Shown: one piece after another, positions 9 to 51,961 of the stretch
Numbering within the stretch: the stretch's first letter is position 1
How the letters are laid out: each line of letters opens with the position of its first letter
Assembly: GCA_903884815.1 (NCBI GenBank)
Contig: CAISGE010000062.1
Location: 17-64,016, forward strand
From: Candidatus Omnitrophota bacterium
Lineage (GTDB): Bacteria > Omnitrophota > Omnitrophia > Omnitrophales > Aquincolibacteriaceae
Direction: 5' to 3'
Length of the DNA stretch: 64,000 nt
Program-made: the position numbers and the translations under genes
The notes under the pieces: generated by a model
What the model saw: the letters and a program-made list of their open reading frames with translations, nothing else
What the model was told of the DNA's origin: nothing
Databases searched by the model: none

Positions 9-3000
9 TTGTCCGCGCTTCCTGGTTTTAAGACCGGGGAACTCACGACCGTGAGTTTTGTGATCGATGAGAACGTGGTTCCTGCCGGGACGAGCGGCAA
101 GGTGACTGTGGACACGATGAACCTGAAGTATATCCCCAGCGTGAATCCCAACCTGGGGTCGACAACGGCGAGTACTTTGCCTCTCTTTTCGGATCTGATC
201 GCGTTTCAAAGTAAAGCACCAGATCCCACCGCAATCGCAAATGTGACGGCTCTTTCAGCCAACCGGTTCAACTTGCTTTTCACTGTCGCAAACGAGGGGA
301 GCTACGGTGGAACTGCCAGCGTTTATACGGAAGCGCACGATTTCACTGCGCTGAGTCATTTGGTGCTTGGCCTGAGATTGTCCGCGGGGAGTGGTGATGT
401 TTTTCTCGAGCTCCAGGATTCTACGGGGGCAAAAGGGAGCGTTCGTTTGACCGGGGTGAATGGGACCCTAGGTTTCTACGACGTGGCTTTAACGGAATTC
501 ACAAATTACTCGAATGTGAATCTTTCCAAAATCTCCAATGTCAATCTCGTGGTCACGTATGATTCTATGTCCGCGTCGGCACGCACGGCTACAACCCTTG
601 AAGTTACTCTTGCAAATCAGCCGTTCGTGACGAACGTTCCGTGGGATCCGACAGCGACGATCAATGACATTTCTCTTCTCCCGCAGTTCAAGAATCTTGT
701 GGCATTCGGGAGCAAGACACCTGCGCCTACCGGGGTGGCAACGGCGACGCCGTTTACGGCAACCCGTTTTAACCTTAATTACAACGTGTTGAATGGCGGC
801 AGCTATGTCGGGAGTATCAGCACCTATGATGATTTTTCGACACCGGCCATAGAATCCATACCCCTTAGTCTGACAAAGCTCGTGCTTGGTCTGCGCCTGC
901 AGTCCGGAGGTGGGGCTGTGAAGATCATTGTGGAAGATGCCTCTACTCCTGGGAACAAAGCGGCTGTTCTCCTCACGGATGTCACGACGACAGAGAAATT
1001 CTATACCATCGATAAGGCCCTTTTTGCGGGCATTGATTGGTCGAAGGTGAGGAATATCATTGTCCAGGTTGAGTCCAAAGATGTTTCGGAAAAGATCGGC
1101 GTGCTGGAAGTGCGTTTCGGGAACAATTACTTTATCCCCGGGGTCATCACGGGGACGACTTATAATCCCGCTGCGTTGACCTCTCTCCCGTTCTTTCCGG
1201 CGCTTCTTGCGGGTTCAGCCAATTCTGCCGCGGGTGAGGCCAAGCCAACGATTACCATGACGCCGAATTCGTCCAGCGAGTTCGAGTATCAGTACGATCT
1301 CTCGCATGGACTTTCCGGATTCACCTTTGTTTCAATCGCAAGGACAGGGTCGCTGGTGTATCGGTTTCCGACCAATCAATATGTCTTTGCGGCCAAAGGC
1401 AGTGCGGGAGAGCGGATTCAGGTGGAGATCAAGGATCCTGACAACTGTGGTACCGCGGCCGGGTGCGATACGGCGGTTTATACGATCGAGTTGACTTCGG
1501 ACTATCAGAATTTCGTGCTGGATCTTCCGGCGAATATCGACCGAACGAGGATCAAGGAAGTTGTTTTTGTCCAGACCGCCAATTTGGGGTCGCCGCTGTT
1601 GAATGATTTTGTGAAGATCCAGACGACGGGATTGAAGACAGTGGTCAATCCTTTGCCGACGGATCTCCAGGCAATTCAAACGACGCTGGCCACGCGAGGT
1701 ATCGGTTATTTTGATCCTAATGCCATAGATTCGGGGATCGATCCTGTCACACATTTCCCGTACGATAATATTACGGATGGTGTGGCCAAAAAACAAACTC
1801 AGCCGACGCTGATCGGATTCTATCTTCAAATCCTCGGGGATGTGGTGCTGAAAGCTCTCAACAACGGCATGGACCAGGCGCATGCGCTTGCCGAGATTCA
1901 GACCGTATTGACCAATCTTCTTTCCGCTCAGGCTCAATATGGTTGGGCTCCTCCCGGGCAAACCGTCAAGGGTCTGATTCCCTGGTTTGATCTTGGAACT
2001 ACCGGCATTACGAAAGCGTCCACGGATAAAGTTGCTCTCGGGGACAACGCGAATTTGGCGCAGAGTTTGGCCGTCATGGTCGGCGCGCTGAAAAATTCGG
2101 GGCTGACCGGGACGAATCTGACAACGGCACAGTCTATCGCCGCCAAGGTCGAACAATTTCTCGATAACCAGAGAGTGGGTTATGAGAAGTTCGTAGATAC
2201 CTCCAAGGGGCAATTCTATGGCGATGTTAGCACCGTGACAGGAGTGTTTTCAAATCACATTGATCGCCTGGCCAATGAATTCCGTGGAGCGATCGCGTTC
2301 CTTATGGTTCGATATCCGACCTTACCGAAAAAGACAAGTGATGGCTCCTCGGTCTGGGACAATCTCGAGGTCGTGACGAATGACAGCTATGTGGATCGTA
2401 ACGGGGATACCATCACGAACCTTGCGGCATGGGATGGCGGCGCTTTTCAGACTTTCTGGCCGTCACTCAGAAATAATGAAATGGATTTTATCGGGTTCCG
2501 GAACGCCCTTTACAATCAGCTCGTCACGCAGTTGGACTATGCGTATCAGAACCGTATCCCCGGCATTTTGTCAGCCAGCGCGCGACCCGACAATAACGCT
2601 TATGAAGGCGATATCGGGATACCGCAGATCGCTGAAGAGAACATGAATCACCCGGCTGGGTCAAATCTGCTTCTGGCCGATGTCGGTTCCACCTATGCTC
2701 TGGCTGCGGCGATGAATGTGGATAACTACGCTGTCTTGGGTTGGTTGGATACGATCGACTTTTTGTACGGGGTTAATGGCTCTTTCAAGTTTCTCGTGTC
2801 GGATTTTATCGGGACCTTTGATGCCAACTCTTTTAAGGGGAACGGGCTGGCGGATGGTTGGGATCAGGGGAAACTTACTCCCACACCTGCTACTCCGGAG
2901 GCTTGGCGCGATGCTCTCAATCAGATCCTGCCGGTAAGAATGCGCACCACGGATTATCAAAGTATTCAATCCAATTCAACGATTCTGGCCAAACTCGACG

Positions 3001-4301
3001 CGGAAGCCAAAGGATTGCTCACCAAGGCGCTCATTTCGCCCGCGGTCGACATGACGGTATCTGAGCTGGAAGTTTTGAACAGACGGATCATCGAGGCCGT
3101 TTATCCTCAACTGGTAGAAAAGGCTCACTCCTACGGTTTCTATGATTCAGCTCGGTCTGCCAGCGAGATTTCCTCGAGCTACGTCGGGATCGATGTGGCG
3201 TCGACAGTTCTTGGCCTGTCGGGCAAGGGAGGCGCGGATTTCTCGGCTTATTTGACGGATAAAGGCTGGACGGCAGCCTACAACAAGCTTTACGACGATA
3301 AGAGCCATCTCCTAATGGGAATTACCCGGACAGACACGACGGTTCCCGTTGCGCCTGAGTTTCCGGACCGTTCTTTCGCGGTGTTCAGTAATCTCTCGTC
3401 CCAGGGAGTGATCAATAATTTTCTGCCGACCACGACGCAGCCCTACGGGATACGTCTTGCCTACACCGATTTGAAAGGCGTCGACAGTGGTTATTTCTGG
3501 AAATTTGATCAAGCCTATAACGCCACGGCGAATCAGCTGATCATCAACTATTCGGCGCCTGTGACGCCGCAGAGTGTAAGGCTCGAGTTCAAGGATGCCG
3601 CGGGGTTGGTGCTTTATCAGACGTCCATAATGCTTCAGGATAAGGCCACGTTCGCGCGTCTCATGATCGATCTGCCGAACTTGGCGATCCTGAGCCAGGT
3701 CAAGGAGCTTGATCTTGTAGTGGATCCCCAGGAAGGCGGTGCCGCTCAAGGGGATTTCACGATCCATGCGATTGACTTCCAGCATGTGCCGTCCGCACCG
3801 GTGGTGCCGCTTAGCGTGGTGCCAAGTCCGGCCGTGGTCACAGTATTGCCTGTGAATGACGCTACCGTTCCGGTTGCTGGCGTTCCGGAAGTTGTGGGGA
3901 CATCTCCCAATGACGTGGTGGCACATACGCCGGGTACGAACATTACGGATCTCCATTTTGATCTGAGGCAGCCCAACGCTATTGCCGCGATCGTTCTGAA
4001 TTTCGATCCAAATCTCAAGGGGAATAGTATCGATCTTTCCGCGATCCCGAATCTGATCTTTGGGATCAGTTCGGCAGTGGCGATGAATATCCAAATCGAA
4101 ATTGAAGATACCAAGGGAAATACCTACAGAACCTCGCATTCGGACATTGTGGCGTCGGGATATTACAAGTTTCTGACGTCCCTGGCGTTTGGGCGGGTGG
4201 ATCTGAGCCACGTGAAGGCTATTAAATTTGGCGTGGATCAGTATTCCGTGACAACTCCCACGGAAGGGGATCTGCAGCTTGAGATCGGCGGCTTGTCCTA
4301 G
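9..4301 (+). CDS. Giant (>1430 aa, 5'-truncated by window edge) secreted/surface multi-domain protein; several ~120-aa beta-rich repeat modules (CBM/Ig-like) at both ends flanking a central (alpha/alpha)-barrel-like glycoside-hydrolase-like (glucoamylase-like) region
   Basis: Single uninterrupted ORF in frame from the window start. Internal repeat modules share the motif L(S/T)(H/K)LVLGLRL..G.G. The central segment (DPVTHFPYDNITDG...WDGGAFQTFWP...) resembles glucoamylase-like GH folds. There is no homology to cytoplasmic enzymes. Confidence 0.55.
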   Translation: MSALPGFKTGELTTVSFVIDENVVPAGTSGKVTVDTMNLKYIPSVNPNLGSTTASTLPLFSDLIAFQSKAPDPTAIANVTALSANRFNLLFTVANEGSYGGTASVYTEAHDFTALSHLVLGLRLSAGSGDVFLELQDSTGAKGSVRLTGVNGTLGFYDVALTEFTNYSNVNLSKISNVNLVVTYDSMSASARTATTLEVTLANQPFVTNVPWDPTATINDISLLPQFKNLVAFGSKTPAPTGVATATPFTATRFNLNYNVLNGGSYVGSISTYDDFSTPAIESIPLSLTKLVLGLRLQSGGGAVKIIVEDASTPGNKAAVLLTDVTTTEKFYTIDKALFAGIDWSKVRNIIVQVESKDVSEKIGVLEVRFGNNYFIPGVITGTTYNPAALTSLPFFPALLAGSANSAAGEAKPTITMTPNSSSEFEYQYDLSHGLSGFTFVSIARTGSLVYRFPTNQYVFAAKGSAGERIQVEIKDPDNCGTAAGCDTAVYTIELTSDYQNFVLDLPANIDRTRIKEVVFVQTANLGSPLLNDFVKIQTTGLKTVVNPLPTDLQAIQTTLATRGIGYFDPNAIDSGIDPVTHFPYDNITDGVAKKQTQPTLIGFYLQILGDVVLKALNNGMDQAHALAEIQTVLTNLLSAQAQYGWAPPGQTVKGLIPWFDLGTTGITKASTDKVALGDNANLAQSLAVMVGALKNSGLTGTNLTTAQSIAAKVEQFLDNQRVGYEKFVDTSKGQFYGDVSTVTGVFSNHIDRLANEFRGAIAFLMVRYPTLPKKTSDGSSVWDNLEVVTNDSYVDRNGDTITNLAAWDGGAFQTFWPSLRNNEMDFIGFRNALYNQLVTQLDYAYQNRIPGILSASARPDNNAYEGDIGIPQIAEENMNHPAGSNLLLADVGSTYALAAAMNVDNYAVLGWLDTIDFLYGVNGSFKFLVSDFIGTFDANSFKGNGLADGWDQGKLTPTPATPEAWRDALNQILPVRMRTTDYQSIQSNSTILAKLDAEAKGLLTKALISPAVDMTVSELEVLNRRIIEAVYPQLVEKAHSYGFYDSARSASEISSSYVGIDVASTVLGLSGKGGADFSAYLTDKGWTAAYNKLYDDKSHLLMGITRTDTTVPVAPEFPDRSFAVFSNLSSQGVINNFLPTTTQPYGIRLAYTDLKGVDSGYFWKFDQAYNATANQLIINYSAPVTPQSVRLEFKDAAGLVLYQTSIMLQDKATFARLMIDLPNLAILSQVKELDLVVDPQEGGAAQGDFTIHAIDFQHVPSAPVVPLSVVPSPAVVTVLPVNDATVPVAGVPEVVGTSPNDVVAHTPGTNITDLHFDLRQPNAIAAIVLNFDPNLKGNSIDLSAIPNLIFGISSAVAMNIQIEIEDTKGNTYRTSHSDIVASGYYKFLTSLAFGRVDLSHVKAIKFGVDQYSVTTPTEGDLQLEIGGLS

Positions 4302-4398
4302 CTTCCTCTCTTCGTTTCAATAAAGGTTGCTAGGGCTAGTCCAATTTTCGATTTAGAAATAAATGCGGTGAATTGGGCTTGTCCTAGCTTCCTCTCTT
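4291..4398. repeat. Two perfect 22-bp direct repeats (gcttgtcctagcttcctctctt) at 4291-4312 and 4377-4398; the first copy spans the stop codon of the giant gene
   Basis: Exact 22/22 match read directly in the sequence, 86 bp apart. Confidence 0.8.
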
Positions 4399-4589
4399 TT
4401 CGTAAGGGAATCGGATTTGCAATAATACCGGGTCAGGGTTACAATCCACTCACGATTTTTTTAAACACGGGGATGGAATGTATGGAAAACGAACCCGGTA
4501 TCCTCGATCTCATTGAGACTCTAAAGAGCAGTCAAACATCCCGCCCGGCGGGCTCCAGAGCGGTTGCAACCCCTATAGGGAGGTCCACC

Positions 4590-5456
4590 ATGAATAATCC
4601 CATCTCGGGACTCATCTTTTTCGCACTTCTCATCCTCGGTTTTCTTGTGGGCGCGCCGATTTTTATGGCGAATCAGGCCCTCGGGGGAATGCTGGGGGTG
4701 GGCTGGTTCTTTCTTTCCATGGTCATCGCCAATGGGGTTCAAATGGCGGCGCAATGGGAGAAGGGAGTGGTTTTTCAGCTTGGAAAATTCAGCAGAATCG
4801 CGGGGCCCGGACTTTTCTTTATTATTCCGGTGGTGGAGGAGGTTCGCAAGATCGATATGCGCGTTCTCACGATGGATATCCCGTCCCAGCAGGTGATCAC
4901 CAAGGACAATGTGCCCGTGAAGATCAATGGCGTGATCTTTTTTAAAGTCGATGATCCCGCGAACGCGATCATTAAAGTGCAGGATTATCGTTACGCGATC
5001 TCGCAGTACTCCCAGACCTCGCTTCGTGACGTCATCGGTCAGATGACGCTCGATCAGCTTCTGACGGAACGGGAAGAGATCGGCAAAAAGATCGAGGCGA
5101 ATGTGGAAAAAGACACCGAAGCCTGGGGACTTGAAGTGACAGGCATCCGGATCCAGGATATTGATATGCCGGAAGAGCTTAAGAAGATGATGTCCCGTCA
5201 AGCCTCGGCGGAACGGGAAAAGCGCGCGACGATCACGAAGGCGGAAGGCGATCGCGATGCCTCGGCGAACCTTGCGCTAGCGGCGAAGATCATGGCGGAA
5301 AGTCCAGGGGCGATGCAACTCAGGACGCTTCAGACGATTGATGGTCTTGGGCCTACGGCTTCGAACACCGTGGTGCTTGCGGTGCCTATCAATATCATGG
5401 ATATCTTGGATCAGACCAGCGCGTTCTTGAAGACCAAGACGAACAAACCGACTTAG
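4590..5456 (+). CDS. SPFH/band-7 (stomatin/prohibitin/QmcA-like) membrane protein
   Basis: N-terminal TM helix followed by a typical SPFH core (VFQLGKF...GPGLFFIIP...IPSQQVITKDNV...) and an Ala/Glu-rich coiled tail. Start chosen at the ATG at 4590, preceded by GGGAGG; the upstream in-frame extension looks non-coding. Confidence 0.8.
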   Translation: MNNPISGLIFFALLILGFLVGAPIFMANQALGGMLGVGWFFLSMVIANGVQMAAQWEKGVVFQLGKFSRIAGPGLFFIIPVVEEVRKIDMRVLTMDIPSQQVITKDNVPVKINGVIFFKVDDPANAIIKVQDYRYAISQYSQTSLRDVIGQMTLDQLLTEREEIGKKIEANVEKDTEAWGLEVTGIRIQDIDMPEELKKMMSRQASAEREKRATITKAEGDRDASANLALAAKIMAESPGAMQLRTLQTIDGLGPTASNTVVLAVPINIMDILDQTSAFLKTKTNKPT

Positions 5457-5820
5457 GCGGCGGGACTTTGGGGCAAAAAAAAGCCCCAACAATGAGTTCG
5501 AGAATCACGCTTTATCTAGCAATTTTATAGTATAAAAAACCGCATTGCTCGTCAGGCGAAATCCTCTAGGCTGTGGCTGTTATGCTCACGTTGAGGCTTT
5601 TAGCTCTTGGGAGGAACGGCTTCGAATCCTGCCTTGCTTCGCCGTTCCTCAATGTCAAAGAATCATGTATAATACCCCTCAATTGAAGGGTAGCTGTCCC
5701 AGGCTCATCTGTCAAGGTTCGTAAGCCTAATCAGTTAAAAGACTTAGGAAAGCAGTTTTTGACAATAAATGGGGTTGTTGTTAGGATAACTCGCAATGGT
5801 GTTCAAAATCTGAAAAGGTT

Positions 5821-7035
5821 GTGACGATGCACAGTACGACAGAAGAGATTATCCAGGATATTCGTGAGGGTCGCATGGTCATCATGACCGATGATGAGAC
5901 CCGTGAGAACGAAGGCGACATTGTTTTTGCCGCTTCCAAGACGACTCCTGAGATGGTCAATTTCATGATGAAATACGCGCGCGGGCTGATTTGTGTTCCT
6001 ATGGCCGCAGATCGCATTCAGGTTTTAGGGCTTGATCAGATGAATCCGAATCCTGAAGACTCCATGAAAACCGCGTTCACGGTATCGGTGGACGCGCGAG
6101 TCGGCATTACCACAGGGATTTCCGCCTATGATCGGAATCGAACCATTGAACTTCTCGCCGACTCCCGGACGCACCGCGAAGACCTGGTGATCCCCGGGCA
6201 TATTTTTCCGCTCAAGGCTAAGCAGGGAGGCGTGCTTCGCCGTGCCGGCCATACCGAAGCCGCGGTAGATCTGGCAGAGGCCGCCGGGTTGCCATCCGCG
6301 GCGGTAATCTGCGAGATCGTTAATGACGATGGGAAAATGGCGAGACTTGCGGATCTCCTGGAATTCGCAAAGGCGCATAAGCTGAAGATCGGAACGATAC
6401 AGGATCTCATCGCTTACCGGACCAAGGCCAACAAGCTTGTGAAGAAAATAAGCGAGGCGCAGCTGCCGACTAAATTCGGCGTTTGGACCATCAAGATCTA
6501 TGAGTCGGTCCTTGACGGCGCGCAGCATGTCGCGTTGATCCAGGGGAAGGTCGGGGATAGTCCGGCGCTCGTGCGTGTCCACTCGGAGTGTTTTACCGGG
6601 GATGTGCTGAGTTCTCTGCGCTGTGATTGTCAGGATCAGCTTGCCGCAGCGATGAAGATGATTCAAAAAGAAGGTGCGGGCGTGATCCTCTATATGCGTC
6701 AGGAAGGTCGTGGAATCGGTCTCGCGAACAAGATCAAGGCGTACGGGCTTCAGGACGATCAAGGGCTCGACACGGTCCAGGCAAATGAGGCGCTCGGTTT
6801 TAAGCCGGATCTTCGCGATTACGGGATCGGGGCCCAGATCCTTCACGACCTTGGGCTTTCCAAGCTTCGTCTGATGACCAATAATCCCCGCAAGATCGTG
6901 GGACTGGAAGGGTATGGTCTTCAGATCGTCGAGCGGCTTCCGATCGTTATCCCCTCGAACCCTACGAACGCGAAATACCTTCAGACGAAAATAGATAAAT
7001 TCGGCCATCTTTTCGGTAAGGAGACGAACCCATGA
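5821..7035 (+). CDS. ribBA: Bifunctional 3,4-dihydroxy-2-butanone-4-phosphate synthase / GTP cyclohydrolase II
   Basis: N-terminal DHBP synthase motifs (MTDDETRENEGD) and C-terminal GTP cyclohydrolase II (HSECFTGDV...CDCQDQL...YMRQEGRGIGL). Confidence 0.92.
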   Translation: MTMHSTTEEIIQDIREGRMVIMTDDETRENEGDIVFAASKTTPEMVNFMMKYARGLICVPMAADRIQVLGLDQMNPNPEDSMKTAFTVSVDARVGITTGISAYDRNRTIELLADSRTHREDLVIPGHIFPLKAKQGGVLRRAGHTEAAVDLAEAAGLPSAAVICEIVNDDGKMARLADLLEFAKAHKLKIGTIQDLIAYRTKANKLVKKISEAQLPTKFGVWTIKIYESVLDGAQHVALIQGKVGDSPALVRVHSECFTGDVLSSLRCDCQDQLAAAMKMIQKEGAGVILYMRQEGRGIGLANKIKAYGLQDDQGLDTVQANEALGFKPDLRDYGIGAQILHDLGLSKLRLMTNNPRKIVGLEGYGLQIVERLPIVIPSNPTNAKYLQTKIDKFGHLFGKETNP

Positions 7036-9131: not shown

Positions 9132-9803
9132 ATGTTCACGGGCATTATTGAGAATCAAGGCATCGTTAAAAAAAGGGAAGATCGCGGCGGGCAGGTCCGC
9201 TTCGGGTTCCGGTTCAGGAAAAAAGAAAAAGGACTCCGTGTGGGAGAAAGCATCATGGTCTCCGGGGTATGTTTGACAGCCGTTCGCGTGAGTCCCGAGG
9301 GTTTTGAAGCAGATGTGGTGCATCAGACGCTTCAAGCGACGACGCTTGGAGCGCTTAAGATGGGCGGTGTCGTCAATCTTGAGAGGTCGCTCAAGGTGGG
9401 AGATGGGATGGGCGGGCATTTTGTGACCGGTCATATCGACGGCCGCGGCACGATTTGTAAGATTGAAAAGAGAAAAAAGAATACGACCTTGTTCATTAAA
9501 GCTTCCAAGGATATAATCGCGCTGCTCGCGGACAAAGGCTCGGTTGCTTGTGACGGAATCAGCCTGACCGTCCAAAAAGTTCGCGGGGGAATTTTCCAAA
9601 TTGCTGTGATCCCTCACACGCTCAAGGTGACGACGTTGGGGATCAAGCGAGTGGGCTATGAAGTCAATCTCGAAGTGGATATTGTGGCGCGCTATCTTCA
9701 AATGTGTTTTGCTAAAGAAAAGTCCCGGAAAACTTTTTCATCGCGCGCGATACTCCGGGAACTTCTCCAGCAGGGGCGTGAGTGGAAAAAAGATTTGAAT
9801 TGA
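9132..9803 (+). CDS. ribE: Riboflavin synthase alpha chain
   Basis: Begins MFTGIIE..G, the classic riboflavin synthase N-terminus, with a duplicated lumazine-binding half (HFVTGHIDG); AGGAG RBS present. Confidence 0.85.
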   Translation: MFTGIIENQGIVKKREDRGGQVRFGFRFRKKEKGLRVGESIMVSGVCLTAVRVSPEGFEADVVHQTLQATTLGALKMGGVVNLERSLKVGDGMGGHFVTGHIDGRGTICKIEKRKKNTTLFIKASKDIIALLADKGSVACDGISLTVQKVRGGIFQIAVIPHTLKVTTLGIKRVGYEVNLEVDIVARYLQMCFAKEKSRKTFSSRAILRELLQQGREWKKDLN

Positions 9804-10186
9804 GTGCGTCGTCGGAAGTCCTTTCTCCGTTCCGTAAGGAGTTCCGCGGAATTCTGGGACAAGAGGGATGGGAGAAAAAGACGACCGAAGAGATCCTTCT
9901 GTGTGTTGATGAAGCCCTGACCAATATCATCCGGCACGCCTACCAGGGAAATCCCGGGAAGATGACGGTCTTGGTGCAGGTGAATCATGACAAGGTTGAG
10001 ATCGTGATGGAGGATCAGGGGAAGAAGTTCGATCCGACGCAAGTGCCTTCGCCGGAACTTCCGCGTGAAAAGCCGGGCGGTCTCGGAGTTCATTTTATCA
10101 GGACAATCATGGATCAGATGATCTATGATGCTCATTACCTTCAGGGAAACCGGCTTCGTTTGATCAAACATAGGCGTAAAATTTGA
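9782..10186 (+). CDS. Anti-sigma regulatory factor, RsbW/SpoIIAB-like serine kinase (HATPase_c)
   Basis: GTG start. The N-box EALTNIIRHAY, the segment DQGKKFDP and the G-box PGGLGVHFIRTIMD are typical of partner-switching kinases. Confidence 0.7.
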   Translation: MEKRFELSASSEVLSPFRKEFRGILGQEGWEKKTTEEILLCVDEALTNIIRHAYQGNPGKMTVLVQVNHDKVEIVMEDQGKKFDPTQVPSPELPREKPGGLGVHFIRTIMDQMIYDAHYLQGNRLRLIKHRRKI

Positions 10187-10202
10187 AAAGGAAGGTGGCG
10201 GC

Positions 10203-10547
10203 ATGAATATCCAGTCGAAGAATCAGGGGGATATACAAATGTTGGAACTTTCCGGCGAACTCGATTATCATTCTTCGCCGGAGCTTCGCGAAAAGTTGAC
10301 CGAGTTGACCGGGAAACAGACGGCAAAGATCCTCGTGGATCTTTCCGGCGTGGATTATATGGACAGCTCCGGCATTGCCACCTTTGTGGAAGCTTTCCAG
10401 AAGACCAAACGTTATCAGGGACGGCTCATTCTTGCGGCGCTTACGGATACGGTGCGGGGGGTTTTTGAGATTGCCAAGCTTGACAGTATTTTTGAGATAG
10501 CCCCTACCGTTGTCGAAGGGGTGGCGAGCTTGGGTTCCAAAGTTTAA
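10203..10547 (+). CDS. STAS-domain protein (anti-sigma-factor antagonist RsbV/SpoIIAA-like; also positioned like MlaB)
   Basis: STAS fold with a conserved phosphorylatable serine (YMDSSGIATFV); good RBS; lies directly upstream of mlaE/mlaF/mlaD. Confidence 0.75.
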   Translation: MNIQSKNQGDIQMLELSGELDYHSSPELREKLTELTGKQTAKILVDLSGVDYMDSSGIATFVEAFQKTKRYQGRLILAALTDTVRGVFEIAKLDSIFEIAPTVVEGVASLGSKV

Positions 10548-10572
10548 ACCGTTAGACGAGGATCCTTTTTCC

Positions 10573-11373
10573 ATGAACGAATTTTTAGGAAGTATCGGTC
10601 AGAGCGTGCTTTTTGTTTTAGCCGGAGTCGCGCGCTTGTGGGCACTGGGAGCCGCGGTCGTCGGCTTCACCCTCCAGTCCTTTTTAAATAAGAAGATTAT
10701 TCCGCGCGAAGTCTTTTTCCGTCAGCTGGTCCTGATTGGCATCGATTCTACGGCGATAGTCTCCCTCGTGGGCGCTTCGGTTGGGACGGTTCTGGCGTTG
10801 CAAGCGGCCTATTCTCTGAAGACCTTTGGGGCGCTCATGTACACAGGAAGCCTTGTGTGCGTGGCCATGGCCCGCGAACTGGGTCCCTTGATCGCCGCGA
10901 TCGTGATCTCTGGCCGCATCGGCGCGCGCATGGCGGCCGAGATCGGTACCATGATGGTCCAGGAAGAAGTGGATGCTCTTACCACCATGGGGATTAATCC
11001 CATCCGGTTTCTCGTCGCGCCGCGTGTTCTCGCGCTGGCCTGCATGCTCCCGTGTCTGACGGTCATCGTGGATATTGTGGGGATGATCGGGGGTTGGGCG
11101 ATCGGCGTGACAGGTCTCGGCATCAATTCTACTCTTTATATCGCGAAGAGTATCGAGGCGCTTTGTCTCAAAGATATCTATACCGGTCTTCTGAAGAGTA
11201 TTATTTTCAGCATTCTTATCGCGCTGGTGAGTTGCCATCAGGGGCTTTCGGTTTCGGGTGGCGCGGACGCGGTGGGGAAAGCCACCACGCAGGCGGTCGT
11301 GATCTCGATCGTGTTGATCATTGTGGTGGACTGTTTGGCGACGGCGGTTATTTATTACGCCTTGCCCACGTAA
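10573..11373 (+). CDS. mlaE: Mla/Ttg2-type ABC transporter permease
   Basis: Multi-TM protein with MlaE family motifs (ARELGPLIAAIVISGRIGARMAAEIGTMMVQEEVDAL); start at the ATG at 10573. Confidence 0.85.
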   Translation: MNEFLGSIGQSVLFVLAGVARLWALGAAVVGFTLQSFLNKKIIPREVFFRQLVLIGIDSTAIVSLVGASVGTVLALQAAYSLKTFGALMYTGSLVCVAMARELGPLIAAIVISGRIGARMAAEIGTMMVQEEVDALTTMGINPIRFLVAPRVLALACMLPCLTVIVDIVGMIGGWAIGVTGLGINSTLYIAKSIEALCLKDIYTGLLKSIIFSILIALVSCHQGLSVSGGADAVGKATTQAVVISIVLIIVVDCLATAVIYYALPT

Positions 11374-11380
11374 GGAATTT

Positions 11381-12187
11381 ATGAGCGAATCAGAACCGCA
11401 CGTTATTGAAATCAGGGATCTCGTTAAACGTTTCGGGGATTTGACCGTTCTGAACGGTATCAATGTCAAGATCCCGCGCGGCAAGATCACGGTCATTATG
11501 GGCGGTTCGGGGTGCGGCAAGACGACTTTTTTAAGGCATCTGATCGCTTTGCACCAGCCCACTTCCGGGGAGATCCTGGTGGATGGCAAGAACACCGTCG
11601 GACTCAATGAAAAGGATATGAACGAAGTGCGGCGCAAGTTTGGCATGCTCTTCCAGGGGTCGGCACTTTTTAATTCTATGACTGTCGGGGAAAATGTCGC
11701 GGTGCCCCTTAAGGAACACACTGATCTTTCCCGGGAGATCATTCGCATAATCGTTCGCGTAAAACTTGAGCTCGTGGGGCTTACGGGATTTGAGGATTTT
11801 ATGCCCCACCAGATCTCGGGCGGTATGAAAAAACGCGTGGCACTTGCCCGGGCGATCGCGCTCGACCCGAAGATCGTTTTCTATGATGAGCCGGGCGCGG
11901 GTTTGGACCCGATCACCGCGAGCATGATCGACCGGTTGATTCTGGACCTTAGCAAAAAACTTAATATCACTTCGGTTGTCGTTTCCCATGAAATGAAAAG
12001 CGCGTTTAGGATCGCGGACCAGATCATTGTTCTTCATAAAGGGAAAGTGCTGCAGGTCGGCTCGGCTGATGAGATCAAGAATTCAAAAGATTCGTATGTG
12101 CAGCAGTTTATTCAGGGAGAATCTGAAGGCGTTATTCCGTTCAAGCAAACCAGCGAAGCCTATTTGAAAGGGCTTCTCTCTACTTAA
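11381..12187 (+). CDS. mlaF: Mla/Ttg2-type ABC transporter ATP-binding protein
   Basis: Walker A (GGSGCGKTT), ABC signature (ISGGMKKRVALARA) and Walker B (VFYDEPGAGLD). Confidence 0.88.
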   Translation: MSESEPHVIEIRDLVKRFGDLTVLNGINVKIPRGKITVIMGGSGCGKTTFLRHLIALHQPTSGEILVDGKNTVGLNEKDMNEVRRKFGMLFQGSALFNSMTVGENVAVPLKEHTDLSREIIRIIVRVKLELVGLTGFEDFMPHQISGGMKKRVALARAIALDPKIVFYDEPGAGLDPITASMIDRLILDLSKKLNITSVVVSHEMKSAFRIADQIIVLHKGKVLQVGSADEIKNSKDSYVQQFIQGESEGVIPFKQTSEAYLKGLLST

Positions 12188-12208
12188 GCGTTTTCCGAGG
12201 AGGAAAAG

Positions 12209-12844
12209 ATGGATTCATCAAAGTCTTATTCGTCATCCGAGATCAAATCCGGATTTTTTGTGTTGGTCGCGCTTGTGATGCTTTTGGTGCTCACCTTCGT
12301 GGTCGGAGGCTATTTTAAGAAAGGGGCCAACGAATGGAAGGTCCAGTTCGGCTACCTGAGCGGTTTGAGCGACAGTGCTCCCGTTTATTATGCGGGGCGT
12401 GAAGTGGGCAAGGTGGACAGTATTCAGATCCTTCGTGGAAGTAATCGGCCTGTGCTCGTGACGATCAAGGTTTCCAACGATGCCTACGTCCGCCAGGACA
12501 GTGTGGCGTATATCGATACGCTCGGGATGATGGGGGAGAAGTTCATCGAGATCTCTGTCGGTTCAAAGGATGCGCCGCCCCTGGAAGCCGGTAAAGTGAT
12601 CGAGGGCGTGGACCCGATCCCGATGCATGTTCTGATCCGAAAAATGAACCTTTTGGCAGACGAAGTCGAAACGATGACAGTGAGCCTCAACCCGCTCTTG
12701 AAGAACGTCAATGACGTGGTAGCTGGGAATAAGGAAGAGATCTCCAAGAGTCTCACGAATCTTCATGAAGTTTCCGCGAACCTACGGGATATGACCGCCG
12801 ATCTCAAGCTCCATCCGTGGCGCCTGGTTCGCAAAGGTTCTTAA
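12209..12844 (+). CDS. mlaD: MCE-domain substrate-binding protein
   Basis: N-terminal TM anchor followed by an MCE domain; operon position after mlaE and mlaF. Confidence 0.75.
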   Translation: MDSSKSYSSSEIKSGFFVLVALVMLLVLTFVVGGYFKKGANEWKVQFGYLSGLSDSAPVYYAGREVGKVDSIQILRGSNRPVLVTIKVSNDAYVRQDSVAYIDTLGMMGEKFIEISVGSKDAPPLEAGKVIEGVDPIPMHVLIRKMNLLADEVETMTVSLNPLLKNVNDVVAGNKEEISKSLTNLHEVSANLRDMTADLKLHPWRLVRKGS

Positions 12845-12853
12845 GGGAGTTCT

Positions 12854-13192
12854 ATGCGCTTAAAGACGGCGATTTTGCTCATTCTTTGTTCTCTTGTCGG
12901 GGCTCCTTTCGTTGTTGCGGAAGGAACGGTCGGGGATTATATGTATGGGATCGGGACAAAATTCGGGCGCGGCCTTGAAAATGTGGTGACCAGCCTCGCG
13001 GAAGTCCCTTGTACGGTTCACACCGAGATGAAAGATCAAGGGGGCTCCGGATTTTTTCCGGGACTCGGCAAAGGAACTCTTTTTATGTTGCGTCGGATGC
13101 TCGTCGGCGTGACCGAAGTCGGTACTTTTTTCATCCCCATGGAGCGGACGATTCCCCGAGTCTGCCAGGAAACCAAGCCTTCGGTGGTCTGA
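12854..13192 (+). CDS. Small secreted hypothetical protein (signal peptide)
   Basis: Signal-peptide-like N-terminus (MRLKTAILLILCSLVGAPFVVA) and an RBS; no recognised domain. Confidence 0.4.
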   Translation: MRLKTAILLILCSLVGAPFVVAEGTVGDYMYGIGTKFGRGLENVVTSLAEVPCTVHTEMKDQGGSGFFPGLGKGTLFMLRRMLVGVTEVGTFFIPMERTIPRVCQETKPSVV

Positions 13193-13304
13193 CGCGATCG
13201 GTCGCGTGCCTCAGGAAATTTTTGCGGGAATTTTATGGATTGCCGCTTGACGCTGGCGCGCAGGTCTTCCTATAATAGCCCGTCACTTAACTGAAGGAGA
13301 AATA

Positions 13305-13646
13305 ATGACTCTAAATGAGAAAGCTGTCGCACCCAAGGACCCCGAGGTCCAGGACGCGCAGTTCTTTGCGGCGATCGGCTATTTGAGTTTTCTTTGTTTT
13401 GTACCGCTTGCGCTCAAGCGTGAGAACAAGTTTGCACTTTTTCACGGGAAACAGGCCTTGGTTCTTTTTATTATGGAACTGGCCGCGGCGATCCTGAAGG
13501 TGGTGCCGGCCTTAGGGGATCTCGTGTTCACTTTGGCGTTCGTGGTGTTTGGGATCCTTTCTCTTATCGGGATCGTGAAGGTGCTGATGGGAGAACGCTG
13601 GGAGATCCCGGTGGTGAGTGAGATCGCCGAGAGGATCACCTTCTAA
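13305..13646 (+). CDS. Small integral membrane protein (DUF4870-like)
   Basis: Strong AGGAG RBS and two to three TM helices; resembles the short conserved membrane-protein family DUF4870. Confidence 0.45.
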   Translation: MTLNEKAVAPKDPEVQDAQFFAAIGYLSFLCFVPLALKRENKFALFHGKQALVLFIMELAAAILKVVPALGDLVFTLAFVVFGILSLIGIVKVLMGERWEIPVVSEIAERITF

Positions 13647-25020: not shown

Positions 25021-26121
25021 TTGAGAATTATCGCCATCGCGAATCAAAAAGGCGGATGTGGAAAGACTACGACCAGCATTAATTTCTCGGCTTGTCTGAA
25101 TTTTCTTCAGAAGAAAGTGCTCGTGGTCGATCTGGATCCGCAGGGGCATTCCACTTGTGGGTTGGGTGTCAAAACTCAGAGGGGCATGCTGACCCTTTAT
25201 GACCTTTTGAGTCCTCTTCAGAGCGTGACGCCTTCTCTTTCCCAGGTCATCCAAAACCTTCGGACGGATTTTGATCTCCTTCCTTGTAACGCAAGCCTGA
25301 ACGCGATCGAAGAAGAATTCGGGTTTATGCCCAATTATCACCTTAAGCTTCGGGATCTTCTGGCCAGGATTTCTGAAGACCCTCGCCGATACGATTTTGT
25401 GGTGCTGGATTGTCCTCCGAATCTTGGCATGCTCACCTGGAACGCTCTGAATGCGGCCGATGAGATCATTGTTCCCGTGGAGCCCTCCTTTTTTTCGCTG
25501 CATGGCCTCGCCAAGATCTCGGAGACTCTTCAGATCGTGAATCGAAGCCGGGAGACGCCTTTGGCGGTTCACGCGCTTCTGACGCTTTTTAACTCCGAGG
25601 TGAATTTCTCCCATGAAATCTACGATGAAGTTCGCGCCCACTTCAAAGACAGGCTCTTTACAACGATCATTCACGAACATGTCAGTCTCAAAGAGGCCGC
25701 CGCGGCGGGGCAGAGTATTGTTCAGTATGGGCCACAATCACAAGCCTTTCAGGACTACCTGAATCTGGCGGTGGAATATCTGGAACGGGACTGGAATCGC
25801 AAACTCCCGGAAAAGGAGTTGGGTTGGGAGCAGGTTTATCAAAACCATTTTGGGCCGCGGCAGGTTTCGGACGGGATCCTCTTTCAGTTTTTGAGCAAGA
25901 CAGCGTCGTCTGTGGAGATCGCCGGGGATTTTAATCATTGGGTCGCAGAGCCTCTCTTGCGGCGCAATCAAGACGGGCTTTGGCAGAAGGTTATTCCGGT
26001 GGAGCCTAAAACGTTTCGATATAAGTTTATCGTGGATGGGGAGTGGCAGGTTGATCCTAGTCAACCCATGCAGCGAGAAAATGCTTATGGCGGCGTTGAT
26101 TCTTACGTGGAGTTATCCTGA
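25021..26121 (+). CDS. ParA/Soj-family P-loop ATPase fused to a C-terminal AMPK-beta-type glycogen-binding domain (CBM48)
   Basis: TTG start with an AGGAG RBS. Deviant Walker A (NQKGGCGKTTTSINFSACL) and Walker B (VLDCPPNL). The C-terminal ~85 aa (VEIAGDFNHW...YKFIVDGEWQVDPSQP) align closely to the AMPK beta GBD/CBM48 (SGSFNNW...YKFFVDGQWTHDPSEP). Confidence 0.8.
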   Translation: MRIIAIANQKGGCGKTTTSINFSACLNFLQKKVLVVDLDPQGHSTCGLGVKTQRGMLTLYDLLSPLQSVTPSLSQVIQNLRTDFDLLPCNASLNAIEEEFGFMPNYHLKLRDLLARISEDPRRYDFVVLDCPPNLGMLTWNALNAADEIIVPVEPSFFSLHGLAKISETLQIVNRSRETPLAVHALLTLFNSEVNFSHEIYDEVRAHFKDRLFTTIIHEHVSLKEAAAAGQSIVQYGPQSQAFQDYLNLAVEYLERDWNRKLPEKELGWEQVYQNHFGPRQVSDGILFQFLSKTASSVEIAGDFNHWVAEPLLRRNQDGLWQKVIPVEPKTFRYKFIVDGEWQVDPSQPMQRENAYGGVDSYVELS

Positions 26122-28508: not shown

Positions 28509-28946
28509 ATGTTTTACGGTGAGTTTGAACATGTGATCGATACGAAAAGCCGCGTGATGATCCCCGCGAAATTCCGCGAGATCTTCAAGGAGCGCTATGC
28601 AGAGCGCTTTTTTATCACCCGCGGTCTCGATCAGTGCTTATTTGTTTTCACCGAGGAACAGTGGAAGACGGAAGAGAAAAAGTTTCGCGACATGCCTTTC
28701 ACCAAAGCCGAATCCAGAACCTTCAATCGTCTTTTCTTTTCAGGAGCTTGTGAAGTGGTGTGTGACAAACAGGGGAGAATTCTCATTCCGGATTATCTGA
28801 AGAGCTATGCGGAGATCAAGGCGGATGTCACGATCGTGGGCGTTTCAAGTCGTATAGAAATTTGGGCGAAAGAAAAGTGGCAGGGATTTTTCGATCATCA
28901 TAAAGGTCATTTTGAAGAACTCGCGGAAAAATTAGTCGCAGAATAG
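28509..28946 (+). CDS. mraZ: Transcriptional regulator MraZ
   Basis: Duplicated MraZ (DUF-UPF0040) halves (IDTKSRVMIPAKFRE and CDKQGRILIPDYLK). Confidence 0.9.
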   Translation: MFYGEFEHVIDTKSRVMIPAKFREIFKERYAERFFITRGLDQCLFVFTEEQWKTEEKKFRDMPFTKAESRTFNRLFFSGACEVVCDKQGRILIPDYLKSYAEIKADVTIVGVSSRIEIWAKEKWQGFFDHHKGHFEELAEKLVAE

Positions 28947-28959
28947 AAAAGGAGTCATT

Positions 28960-29298
28960 ATGGTCTATCACGCCAGAACGAAGAGTGCCGTGGATGTATT
29001 GCGTTTCAATGGGGACCTTGATGCGCTAAGCATGATCAAAATGAAAGATCGGATGAACCGTTTAATGAACAGGAACCACAAGCGTCTTTTGTTGGACCTG
29101 AAAGATACGAAGCACGTGGAATTAGCAGGCGTCGGTATCTTGGTCGATCGTCTGCGTAAAGTGCGCGAACAAAAAGGGGACATCAAACTTTGCAATCTGC
29201 GTCCCGAAGTTGAGAAGACTTTCCAAATGATCGGGGTCAATGGCTTGATGGAAAGTTATTCGACGGAAGAAGAGGCGATCCTTAGTTTTGCGTCATAG
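28960..29298 (+). CDS. STAS-domain protein (anti-sigma-antagonist-like, non-phosphorylatable) inserted between mraZ and rsmH
   Basis: STAS fold with a strong RBS; the usual DSSG phospho-site is replaced by ELAGVGIL. Confidence 0.6.
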   Translation: MVYHARTKSAVDVLRFNGDLDALSMIKMKDRMNRLMNRNHKRLLLDLKDTKHVELAGVGILVDRLRKVREQKGDIKLCNLRPEVEKTFQMIGVNGLMESYSTEEEAILSFAS

Positions 29299-51881: not shown

Positions 51882-51961
51882 TAGACCCGGCGGGACACGG
51901 AGGTGCGTATATTGTGAAGGCGGCTCCTGGAGTCATCAAGATCGACAGTCATGATCCGGAT

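What the first reader, a model, noticed from the sequence alone, without database searches (positions are those of the whole stretch)
9782..12844. Partner-switching kinase (RsbW-like) and phosphorylatable STAS protein encoded immediately upstream of, and co-oriented with, the MlaE/MlaF/MlaD lipid ABC transporter
MlaB, the STAS-domain accessory of the MlaFEDB complex, is normally a non-phosphorylated structural partner of the MlaF ATPase. Here the STAS protein that sits in the MlaB-equivalent position keeps the canonical phospho-acceptor serine (MDSSGIA). It is also preceded by a complete HATPase_c anti-sigma-type serine kinase. The five genes are tightly spaced, with mlaE only 26 nt behind the STAS stop and the kinase overlapping ribE. 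This arrangement suggests that outer-membrane phospholipid transport could be regulated by reversible serine phosphorylation of an MlaB-like subunit, a linkage I do not recognise as described. Alternatively the kinase/STAS pair is a free-standing Rsb module with no cognate sigma factor nearby.
Basis: partly seen in the sequence, partly recalled or inferred. Interest (0 to 1): 0.65.

Follow-up and report, generated by a model that had tools for sequence, protein, structure and literature searches.

The report
Phospho-switch module wired to Mla lipid transporter
A serine kinase and its phosphorylatable STAS-domain target sit in one operon with an Mla-type lipid ABC transporter; this linkage recurs in several bacterial phyla, often with a sensor phosphatase, so lipid transport is probably switched by phosphorylating a MlaB-like subunit, an idea proposed for E. 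coli for which no kinase was known.

Summary
On the + strand the window encodes a 134-aa RsbW-type kinase (9782-10186), a 114-aa STAS protein with the Y-M-D-S55-S-G motif (10203-10547), then mlaE, mlaF and mlaD. Gaps are 7-25 nt and the kinase overlaps ribE.

The organism is a Candidatus Omnitrophota bacterium. Among 80 genomes found through the STAS protein, a kinase lies directly upstream in 74/78 and mlaE directly downstream in 72/76. GC ranges from 36 to 73%, and records are titled Omnitrophota, Nitrospinota, Tectomicrobia, KSB1 and others. The rib genes upstream are lineage-specific.

Half of the well-flanked loci also carry a PP2C phosphatase in the cluster (CHASE2-PP2C after mlaD, or GAF-PP2C before the kinase). 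No sigma factor was found in any locus.

In a separate sample collected through MlaE, 56/58 loci have a STAS gene directly upstream and 12 have STAS fused to MlaE. The acceptor Ser is kept in 31/31 STAS proteins that have a kinase, but only 22/31 without one keep Ser or Thr.

MlaF keeps the MlaB-docking tail residues Y261/L265/L266. I found no paper describing this linkage. Binding, phosphorylation and the direction of the switch are inferred. The window itself has no phosphatase.

The parts
9782..10186 (+). RsbW/SpoIIAB-type GHKL serine kinase, 134 aa. GTG start overlaps the ribE stop by 22 nt. Motifs: N-box E44/N48, G1 D78/G80, G2 G100-L-G102.
   Evidence: Pfam HATPase_c_2 2e-26. RsbW 6m36_A 6e-11. 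Catalytic motifs are invariant in 75-77 of 77 orthologues. Homologues are 134 aa.
10203..10547 (+). Single-domain STAS protein, 114 aa, the proposed phospho-switchable MlaB-like subunit. The acceptor Ser55 is codon 10365-10367, within Y-M-D-S-S-G-I-A. A Shine-Dalgarno sequence AAGGAAGGTGG precedes the ATG.
   Evidence: Pfam STAS 1e-25 and TIGR00377 96 bits. AF2 model pLDDT 91.9, with S55 at the N-cap of helix 55-70. Foldseek: RsbV TM 0.82, SpoIIAA 0.89, P. aeruginosa MlaB 0.68. phmmer against P. aeruginosa MlaB 7ch8_K gives 1e-9.
10573..11373 (+). MlaE-family ABC permease, 266 aa from ATG 10573, which lies 25 nt after the STAS stop. The open frame extends back to TTG 10510.
   Evidence: Pfam MlaE 1e-72; TIGR00056 224.7 bits, above its cut-off of 212.2. 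Gene callers give 265-266 aa in relatives.
11381..12187 (+). MlaF-type ABC ATPase, 268 aa, with the Mla-specific signature SGGM (146-149). Its C-terminal extension carries Y261, L265 and L266, which in E. coli MlaF dock in the groove between MlaF and MlaB.
   Evidence: P. aeruginosa MlaF 7ch8_I 2e-72 over residues 2-266. SGGM in 64/64; Y261 in 57/65, L265 in 53/65, L266 in 47/65 relatives. The role of these residues is taken from PMC7367683.
12209..12844 (+). MlaD / single-MCE-domain subunit, 211 aa, with an N-terminal membrane anchor.
   Evidence: Pfam MlaD 1e-14; TIGR00996 and TIGR04430 hits fall below their cut-offs.
12854..13192 (+). Small secreted protein of the TIGR04073 family, 9 nt after mlaD. 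It is a possible accessory or last gene of the unit. In sister Omnitrophota a CHASE2-PP2C phosphatase lies between mlaD and this gene.
   Evidence: NCBIfam TIGR04073 52.4 bits, above its cut-off of 50. Synteny.
9132..9803 (+). ribE (riboflavin synthase), the last gene of the rib-nusB block, translationally overlapped by the kinase gene. This adjacency is lineage-specific and not part of the conserved module.
   Evidence: NCBIfam riboflavin synthase 5e-63. It is directly upstream only in the closer Omnitrophota and is displaced or absent elsewhere.
5759..5787 (+). Best promoter-like site ahead of ribBA (TTGACA-17-TAGGAT with a TG). It is the probable start of one long transcription unit running through rib, kinase, STAS and mlaEFD.
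   Evidence: Consensus scan only. The next strong + strand site is at 13247-13276, after the TIGR04073 gene.

Best explanation
The kinase, the STAS protein and MlaE/F/D form one functional module: a partner-switching phospho-switch whose output is an MCE/Mla-type lipid ABC transporter rather than a sigma factor.

Proposed mechanism. The STAS protein is the MlaB-equivalent cytoplasmic subunit that binds the helical subdomain and C-terminal tail of MlaF. The RsbW-type kinase phosphorylates its Ser55, which lies at the centre of the surface that MlaB uses to contact MlaF. A sensor PP2C phosphatase removes the phosphate. That phosphatase is encoded in the same cluster in many relatives (periplasm-sensing CHASE2-PP2C or cytoplasmic GAF-PP2C), but it is not in this window. 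The phosphorylation state therefore decides whether STAS engages MlaF, and so whether the ATPase is assembled and active.

By analogy with E. coli MlaB T52E, phosphorylation most likely switches the transporter off, but this polarity is the least certain step.

Shown here: gene content, intact motifs, cross-phylum synteny, in-cluster phosphatases, STAS-MlaE fusions, and the link between kinase presence and the acceptor serine.

Inferred: the STAS-MlaF contact, the phosphotransfer, the polarity and the lipid substrate.
For: 1. Synteny from STAS-based sampling of species-representative genomes. A kinase is directly upstream of STAS in 74/78 loci, mlaE directly downstream in 72/76, and mlaF follows in 61/64. 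STAS-mlaE spacers are often -4 to +7 nt. The flanks differ between clades (rib genes, histidine kinases, others), GC runs from 0.355 to 0.73, and titles include Omnitrophota, Nitrospinota, Tectomicrobia, KSB1, Thermoanaerobaculia and Phycisphaerae.

2. Phosphatases inside the cluster. PP2C is present in 26/51 well-flanked loci. CHASE2-SpoIIE lies directly after mlaD, so the transporter genes are sandwiched between kinase/STAS and phosphatase. GAF-SpoIIE lies directly before the kinase, and some loci have GAF-SpoIIE-kinase fusions.

3. Independent sampling through MlaE in metagenomes. STAS is directly upstream of mlaE in 56/58 loci, and 12 loci have STAS and MlaE in one reading frame. The acceptor is Ser in 31/31 STAS proteins with a kinase upstream, and all 31 have the exact D-S-S-G. 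Without a kinase, 22/31 have Ser or Thr (Fisher p=0.002) and 8/31 have D-S-S-G (p=3e-10).

4. Kinase catalytic motifs are invariant in 75-77 of 77 orthologues.

5. MlaF is a full-length MlaF orthologue. [quoted passage not shown]

6. The STAS protein matches a bona fide MlaB from a solved MlaFEDB complex: P. aeruginosa 7ch8, 1e-9, 29% identity, TM 0.68-0.79.

7. No sigma factor was found in the window or in 86 loci.

8. Precedent in the literature: MlaB Thr52 is at the centre of the MlaF interface, T52E weakens binding and T52A abolishes ATPase activity. Phosphoregulation was proposed but no kinase was known (PMC5016091, PMC7367683).
Against: - By sequence and fold the STAS protein is RsbV/SpoIIAA-type. 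NCBIfam mlaB_1 scores 30.6 against a cut-off of 90, E. coli MlaB matches only at E=0.18, and the protein has an extra C-terminal helix. Its equivalence to MlaB therefore rests on context and fusions.
- No PP2C lies in the 64-kb window or within 8 kb in 19/19 loci of the window's own clade.
- Three of the 12 natural STAS-MlaE fusions have Asp at the acceptor position. A negative charge is therefore tolerated in a tethered STAS, which leaves the polarity open.
- Loci are phylogenetically related, so counts and Fisher tests overstate independence. The invariance of DSSG in the first sample is partly circular, because one scan pattern was YMDSSGIA.
- A few loci have kinase and STAS without mla genes (L059, L076, L083).
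- No complex prediction or experiment was possible.
Confidence: 0.6

Rival explanations
1. Transporter as sensor. STAS does bind the MlaFED complex, but the information flows the other way. The transport state of the complex sequesters or releases STAS, which then titrates the kinase, and the kinase's second partner (an unlinked sigma factor or enzyme) is the real output.
For: The same synteny and fusion evidence links STAS to the transporter. In classical partner switching it is the kinase that has the second partner. The kinase is RsbW-like.
Against: No candidate second partner is encoded in any of 86 loci. Dedicated sensor domains (CHASE2, GAF) already sit on the in-cluster phosphatases, which suggests that the input enters there. 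Kinase-less and fused STAS-MlaE forms show that STAS has a role in the transporter itself.
Confidence: 0.15
2. Kinase as inhibitor. The RsbW-like kinase itself binds and inhibits MlaF or MlaE, as an anti-sigma factor binds sigma. Unphosphorylated STAS relieves this by capturing the kinase, and STAS never touches the transporter.
For: This is the canonical logic of RsbW/SpoIIAB systems. The kinase co-occurs with mlaEFD in 74/78 loci.
Against: About half of the related MlaE loci have STAS but no kinase, and 12 have STAS fused to MlaE. The STAS-transporter link therefore exists without the kinase. MlaB, a STAS protein, is the known MlaF partner in solved complexes.
Confidence: 0.12
3. Free-standing Rsb-like module. 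The kinase/STAS pair controls an unlinked sigma factor or other target, and its position next to mlaEFD is only operon packing, like the rib genes upstream.
For: The STAS and kinase are most similar to RsbV/RsbW and SpoIIAA/AB. Rare loci have kinase and STAS without mla genes (L059, L076). The window genome packs unrelated genes tightly on one strand.
Against: The adjacency survives across lineages in which every other neighbour changes. Phosphatase genes lie on the far side of the mla genes. STAS-mlaE start/stop overlaps are frequent. STAS-MlaE fusions exist. No sigma factor lies nearby in any locus.
Confidence: 0.08
4. STAS is only a structural MlaB-like subunit. The kinase is a relic or acts on another substrate, so there is no phospho-switch on the transporter.
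For: E. coli MlaB works without any known kinase. Many related loci lack a kinase.
Against: The kinase ATP-binding and catalytic motifs are invariant. The acceptor Ser and the full D-S-S-G are kept in 31/31 STAS proteins with a kinase but are relaxed without one. The only other STAS protein in the window has no acceptor residue (VELAGVG).
Confidence: 0.05

Closest known systems
MlaFEDB phospholipid ABC transporter of E. coli and P. aeruginosa (PDB 6XBD, 6XGY, 7CH8)
   Same: It has an MlaE permease, an MlaF ATPase with the SGGM signature and the C-terminal 'handshake' tail (Y261/L265/L266), a single-MCE MlaD, and a small STAS protein encoded in the same operon. The acceptor position aligns with MlaB Thr52.
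   Different: - Gene order here is kinase-STAS-E-F-D rather than F-E-D-C-B.
- The STAS protein is RsbV/SpoIIAA-like, with a canonical D-S-S-G and an extra C-terminal helix.
- A dedicated serine kinase is encoded alongside, and a PP2C phosphatase in relatives.
- No MlaC or MlaA was found among the roughly 50 window ORFs scanned.
RsbU-RsbV-RsbW-SigB and SpoIIE-SpoIIAA-SpoIIAB-SigF partner-switching systems of Bacillus
   Same: It has a STAS antagonist with the acceptor serine at the N-terminus of helix 2, and a GHKL serine kinase with N, G1 and G2 boxes. In relatives there is a SpoIIE-type PP2C phosphatase with a sensor domain.
   Different: - There is no sigma factor in the operon or nearby.
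- Gene order is kinase then STAS, the reverse of rsbV-rsbW.
- The genes that follow encode an ABC transporter.
- The kinase is shorter (134 aa).
- No phosphatase is in this window.
Partner-switching-like modules with non-sigma outputs in which the STAS protein itself is the effector. Examples: Vibrio fischeri SypE-SypA (PMC10120452, PMC4517449); the Anabaena Hep-layer module (bioRxiv 10.64898/2026.04.08.717354); Pseudomonas HsbR-HsbA (from my own knowledge).
   Same: The phosphorylation state of a STAS-only protein controls a non-transcriptional envelope process.
   Different: The inferred target here is the ATPase of an MCE lipid transporter. The target genes are fixed in the same operon across several phyla.
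STAS-MlaE (DUF140) fusion proteins noted in Pfam (Casali and Riley 2007, PMC1810536; Thong et al. 2016, PMC5016091)
   Same: The same transporter family carries a covalently attached STAS domain. 12 such fusions were recovered here among MlaE relatives.
   Different: The fused forms have no kinase nearby, and their acceptor position is relaxed (S7, T1, D3, A1). The window has a free STAS protein with a strict D-S-S-G and a kinase.

Membership tests
Partner-switching system (RsbU/V/W, SpoIIE/AA/AB type) | Single-domain STAS protein with the conserved phospho-acceptor Ser/Thr after the Asp at the start of helix 2 | tested here: met
   Y-M-D-S55-S-G. S55 aligns with the D-S of SpoIIAA and RsbV in the HMMER alignments. 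The AF2 model puts S55 at the N-cap of helix 55-70. TIGR00377 scores 96 bits, above its cut-off.
Partner-switching system (RsbU/V/W, SpoIIE/AA/AB type) | GHKL-type serine kinase (HATPase_c_2) with intact N, G1 and G2 boxes, encoded next to the STAS gene | tested here: met
   Pfam 2e-26; RsbW 6m36_A 6e-11; motifs invariant in 75-77 of 77 orthologues; 16-nt spacer to the STAS gene. The NCBIfam RsbW equivalog is not reached (65 bits against 145), so this is not an RsbW orthologue.
Partner-switching system (RsbU/V/W, SpoIIE/AA/AB type) | PP2C (SpoIIE-family) phosphatase that resets the STAS protein | tested here: not met
   None was found in the 64-kb window by HMM, tblastn or Pfam, and none lies within 8 kb in 19/19 loci of the window clade. 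The feature is met in related loci, where 26/51 carry CHASE2- or GAF-SpoIIE in the cluster. The rest of this genome could not be searched.
Partner-switching system (RsbU/V/W, SpoIIE/AA/AB type) | A sigma factor bound by the kinase, usually encoded directly downstream | tested here: not met
   No Sigma70 domains were found in about 50 window ORFs.
Partner-switching system (RsbU/V/W, SpoIIE/AA/AB type) | Phosphotransfer from the kinase to the STAS serine, and phosphorylation-dependent exchange of partners | not testable with these tools
   This needs biochemistry. The indirect support is that the acceptor Ser is kept in 31/31 STAS proteins with a kinase, against 22/31 Ser or Thr without one.
MlaFEDB inner-membrane complex / Mla pathway | MlaE permease, MlaF ATPase (LSGGM-type signature and C-terminal handshake tail) and MlaD MCE subunit in one operon | tested here: met
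   Pfam MlaE 1e-72 and MlaD 1e-14. MlaF matches P. aeruginosa MlaF at 2e-72 over the full length. SGGM and Y261/L265/L266 are present. The NCBIfam equivalog cut-offs for E. coli-type MlaE, MlaF and MlaD are not reached, although the MlaE-family subfamily model TIGR00056 is passed. These are therefore members of the family but not close orthologues.
MlaFEDB inner-membrane complex / Mla pathway | MlaB: a STAS subunit that binds MlaF | tested here: inconclusive
   A STAS gene is in the operon, and a STAS gene lies directly upstream of mlaE in 56/58 related loci, with 12 fusions. It matches P. aeruginosa MlaB at 1e-9. However, NCBIfam mlaB_1 scores 30.6 against a cut-off of 90, E. coli MlaB matches only at E=0.18, and the fold is closer to RsbV/SpoIIAA. 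Physical binding could not be tested.
MlaFEDB inner-membrane complex / Mla pathway | Periplasmic MlaC shuttle and outer-membrane MlaA (VacJ) lipoprotein | tested here: not met
   No MlaC or VacJ domain was found in any of the roughly 50 window ORFs scanned. Non-Omnitrophota relatives instead carry an ABC_trans_aux (PF03886) lipoprotein after mlaD. These proteins may be encoded elsewhere in the genome.

The most novel reading that the evidence does not exclude
A widespread and so far undescribed class of partner-switching systems has an MCE/Mla lipid ABC transporter as its output. A sensor phosphatase (periplasm-facing CHASE2 or cytoplasmic GAF) and an RsbW-like kinase set the phosphorylation state of a MlaB-like STAS subunit. 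This gives direct post-translational on/off control of lipid trafficking between the membranes. If true, it would supply the 'missing kinase' for the MlaB phosphoregulation hypothesis and a natural system in which to test it.
Probability: 0.55. Interest if true: 0.8.

Novelty: new variant of a known kind. Interest (0 to 1): 0.72.

Why it matters
How bacteria regulate lipid traffic between their two membranes after the transporters have been made is largely unknown. Two eLife papers on E. coli MlaFEDB (2016, 2020) proposed that the STAS subunit MlaB might be phosphoregulated at Thr52, but no kinase or phosphatase has been found.

These loci provide a complete, genetically linked candidate set in several phyla: kinase, substrate serine, sensor phosphatase and transporter. 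That makes the hypothesis directly testable with recombinant proteins.

The finding would also extend partner switching from control of transcription to direct control of an ABC transporter. The CHASE2-PP2C variants suggest that a signal from the cell envelope could feed straight into lipid transport.

Tried and rejected
- The third homologue search, with a cross-phylum STAS profile, returned mostly unnamed Omnitrophota proteins and added no taxonomic breadth.
- A search for an FMN riboswitch or other RNA element to define the operon start found nothing.
- The fold search of the STAS model confirmed the STAS fold but cannot distinguish kinase binding from MlaF binding, because both use the same helical face.
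- A weak tblastn hit of the PP2C probe at 44749-45006 turned out to be a PurQ-type amidotransferase.
- The second STAS protein in the window (28960-29298) was considered as an alternative kinase substrate and rejected, because it has no Ser/Thr at the acceptor position.
- Complex prediction (STAS with MlaF, or STAS with the kinase) was not attempted.
- Mirror-tree or co-variation analysis was considered and dropped, because co-located genes share their phylogeny and about 70 sequences are too few.
- The rib-mla linkage was considered as functional and rejected. It holds only in the nearer Omnitrophota.

Full report
**What is in the window**

Almost every gene in the window is on the + strand. 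Around the finding the order is:
- ribBA (5821-7035), ribH, nusB, ribD, ribE (9132-9803)
- a 134-aa HATPase_c_2 kinase (9782-10186)
- a 114-aa STAS protein (10203-10547)
- mlaE (ATG 10573 to 11373), mlaF (ATG 11381 to 12187), mlaD (12209-12844)
- a small secreted TIGR04073-family protein (12854-13192)

The junctions are tight. The kinase GTG overlaps ribE by 22 nt. There are 16 nt between kinase and STAS, with a strong Shine-Dalgarno sequence. There are 25 nt between STAS and mlaE, 7 nt between mlaE and mlaF, 21 nt between mlaF and mlaD, and 9 nt between mlaD and the next gene.

A consensus scan finds the best + strand promoter-like sites before ribBA (5759-5787) and after the TIGR04073 gene (13247-13276). 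It finds no convincing terminator in between. No Rfam element, including the FMN riboswitch, is present. STAS and kinase homologues with source names come from Candidatus Omnitrophota.

**The two regulatory proteins**

The kinase has the N-box (E44, N48), G1 (D78, G80) and G2 (G100-L-G102) motifs. Its best solved relative is B. subtilis RsbW in the RsbV-RsbW complex (6m36_A, 6e-11). It does not reach the NCBIfam RsbW equivalog cut-off.

The STAS protein carries Y-M-D-S55-S-G. It passes the anti-sigma-antagonist superfamily model but not the MlaB model (30.6 bits against a cut-off of 90).

Its AlphaFold model is confident (pLDDT 91.9) and places S55 at the start of helix 55-70. Foldseek ranks RsbV (TM 0.82, rmsd 1.2) and SpoIIAA (0.89) first. 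P. aeruginosa MlaB scores 0.68/0.79 at 29% identity and E. coli MlaB 0.61. By sequence, P. aeruginosa MlaB from the solved MlaFEDB complex still matches at 1e-9, while E. coli MlaB matches only at 0.18.

So this is an RsbV/SpoIIAA-type STAS protein. Its equivalence to MlaB has to be argued from other evidence.

**The transporter**

MlaF aligns end to end with P. aeruginosa MlaF (2e-72) and E. coli MlaF (1e-63). It has the Mla-specific SGGM signature. At the same residue numbers as in E. coli, it has Y261, L265 and L266. Kolich et al. showed that these three hydrophobic residues of the C-terminal 'handshake' insert into a groove between MlaF and MlaB. No MlaC or MlaA gene was seen among the roughly 50 window ORFs scanned.

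**Synteny, first sample (through STAS)**

A scan of one genome per GTDB species with the STAS alignment found 294 relatives, and the best 80 were kept. In loci with enough flank:
- a kinase domain lies directly upstream of STAS in 74/78;
- mlaE lies directly downstream in 72/76, and in one further locus it is 870 nt away;
- mlaF follows in 61/64;
- an MCE gene follows that.

STAS-mlaE spacers are frequently -4 to +7 nt.

The rib genes are directly upstream only in the nearer Omnitrophota. Elsewhere they are displaced by several kb or absent, and the other neighbours differ.

The loci span GC 0.355-0.73. Their titles include Omnitrophota, Nitrospinota/Nitrospinaceae, Tectomicrobia, KSB1, Thermoanaerobaculia, Verrucomicrobiia and Phycisphaerae. 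Some 'uncultured X' titles may be unreliable.

The kinase catalytic residues are invariant in 75-77 of 77 orthologues. The D-S-S-G motif is 81/81 in this sample, but that is partly circular because one scan pattern was YMDSSGIA.

**Phosphatases in the cluster**

Pfam and tblastn show four architecture classes.
1. Window clade: rib, kinase, STAS, mlaEFD, TIGR04073. No PP2C lies within 8 kb (0/19).
2. Other Omnitrophota: kinase, STAS, mlaEFD, then a roughly 620-aa CHASE2-SpoIIE protein starting about 20 nt after mlaD. It has membrane segments flanking the CHASE2 domain and a C-terminal PP2C domain.
3. A few Omnitrophota: an HD_5 domain gene before the kinase, or fused to it.
4. Nitrospinota, Tectomicrobia, KSB1 and unnamed lineages: GAF-SpoIIE, kinase, STAS, mlaE, mlaF, mlaD, then an ABC_trans_aux lipoprotein. 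In some of these the GAF, SpoIIE and kinase domains are fused.

Overall 26/51 well-flanked loci carry a PP2C in the cluster. The transporter genes are therefore often bracketed by the three components of a partner switch. In the window itself an HMM search finds no PP2C, one kinase and two STAS genes.

**No sigma factor**

Pfam scans of about 50 window ORFs found no sigma domains. They gave no hit in the window or in 86 loci totalling about 1 Mb.

**Synteny, second sample (through MlaE)**

To avoid circularity I scanned metagenome contigs with a cross-phylum MlaE alignment headed by a Nitrospinota sequence. HMM annotation gave the following.
- STAS is directly upstream of mlaE in 56/58 loci with at least 1.1 kb of upstream sequence.
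- A kinase lies upstream of that STAS in 28/58.
- In 12 loci STAS and MlaE share one reading frame, and none of these has a kinase nearby.

The fusions are of the kind already noted in Pfam by Casali and Riley (2007) and Thong et al. (2016). They tie this STAS lineage physically to the transporter.

The acceptor position then separates the groups:

| Group | n | Residue at the acceptor position |
|---|---|---|
| STAS with a kinase upstream | 31 | Ser 31 (exact D-S-S-G in all 31) |
| Separate STAS, no kinase | 19 | S 10, T 4, A 3, V 1, C 1 |
| STAS fused to MlaE | 12 | S 7, T 1, D 3, A 1 |

Fisher tests give p=0.002 for Ser/Thr and p=3e-10 for D-S-S-G. These are not corrected for phylogeny. The pattern is what is expected if the kinase acts on this serine and the STAS protein works with the transporter whether or not a kinase is present.

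**Literature**

Thong et al. (2016) and Kolich et al. (2020) both proposed that MlaB Thr52 might be phosphorylated. They showed that T52A abolishes ATPase activity and T52E weakens MlaF binding, and they stated that no evidence or kinase existed. Full-text searches combining MlaB, MlaE, MlaF or MCE with partner switching, RsbW/RsbU/SpoIIE, PP2C or serine kinase found no description of this linkage. A review of STAS-only proteins does not mention Mla. The library does not cover all journals.

**Interpretation**

The evidence strongly supports a functional unit of kinase, STAS and MlaFED, with a PP2C in many lineages. The most economical mechanism is a phospho-switchable MlaB-like subunit. The steps that remain inferred are STAS-MlaF binding, phosphotransfer, and polarity.

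Polarity is uncertain for two reasons. The E. coli T52E result argues that phosphorylation switches the transporter off. Against that, Asp occurs at the acceptor position in 3 of 12 fused forms.

The rivals that remain are:
- the transporter acts as the sensor, and the output lies elsewhere;
- the kinase, rather than STAS, contacts the transporter;
- the adjacency is coincidental;
- the kinase is a relic.

The last two are poorly compatible with the data.

I rate this as a new variant of known kinds, a partner switch joined to an Mla/MCE transporter. Interest is 0.72, because it turns an explicit open question into a testable system.

Noticed in passing
window 28960-29298 (+): A second STAS-only protein (112 aa, Pfam STAS 1.7e-16) is wedged between mraZ (28509-28946) and rsmH/mraW (29288-30196) at the head of the cell-division/PBP cluster. 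It has V-E-L-A-G-V-G where the acceptor motif would be, so it is not phosphorylatable. No kinase is next to it.
   Followed up: partly
L053:10639-12507 and the equivalent positions in L031-L055 (for example L034:5802-7574): In sister Omnitrophota a roughly 620-aa CHASE2-SpoIIE (PP2C) membrane phosphatase sits about 20 nt after mlaD, between mlaD and the TIGR04073 gene. The window clade has lost it from that position.
   Followed up: yes
L059:1228-2325; L056:6639-7361; L061:6911-7573: An HD_5 (HD-GYP-like) domain is fused to the RsbW-like kinase (L059) or encoded just upstream of it (L056, L061). In L059 the HD-kinase and STAS pair has no mla genes within 8 kb.
   Followed up: partly
L094, L118, L119, L120, L127, L129, L139, L146, L152, L156, L159, L165 (for example L139:2752-3915): These loci carry natural STAS-MlaE fusions in a single reading frame, with no kinase in the locus. 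Three of them have Asp at the phospho-acceptor position (Y-L/V-D-D-F-G), a possible built-in phosphomimic.
   Followed up: partly
L060:5057-7855; L081:5102-7978: In loci titled Thermoanaerobaculia and Phycisphaerae, the kinase is the C-terminal domain of a 930-960-aa protein. Its N-terminal 480 aa or so match no Pfam family.
   Followed up: partly
L134 (STAS at about 8, kinase at about 286, STAS at about 666, then mlaE): One metagenome locus has two STAS genes flanking the kinase, ahead of mlaE.
   Followed up: no
window 12854-13192 (+) and 13305-13646 (+): A small secreted TIGR04073 ('exosortase system-associated') protein and a DUF4870/MamF-like membrane protein follow mlaD. Both stay near the mla genes across Omnitrophota loci. 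Whether either is a periplasmic or outer-membrane partner of the transporter is unknown.
   Followed up: partly
window 9-4301 (+): A 1430-aa ORF with no Pfam match is followed by a Band_7/SPFH protein (4368-5456). The same pair precedes the rib genes in related Omnitrophota contigs.
   Followed up: no
window 51836-52981 (+): A Sua5/YciO/YrdC domain is fused to a low-molecular-weight phosphotyrosine phosphatase domain (LMWPc) in one 381-aa protein.
   Followed up: no
window 25021-26121 (+): A ParA/MinD-like ATPase (AAA_31/CbiA) carries a C-terminal glycogen-binding module (AMPK1_CBM/CBM_48).
   Followed up: no
window 1-64000: Nearly all ORFs are on the + strand, and GC skew is positive throughout (cumulative skew rises monotonically). 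This is consistent with one replichore with strong co-orientation of genes. No FMN riboswitch precedes the rib genes.
   Followed up: partly
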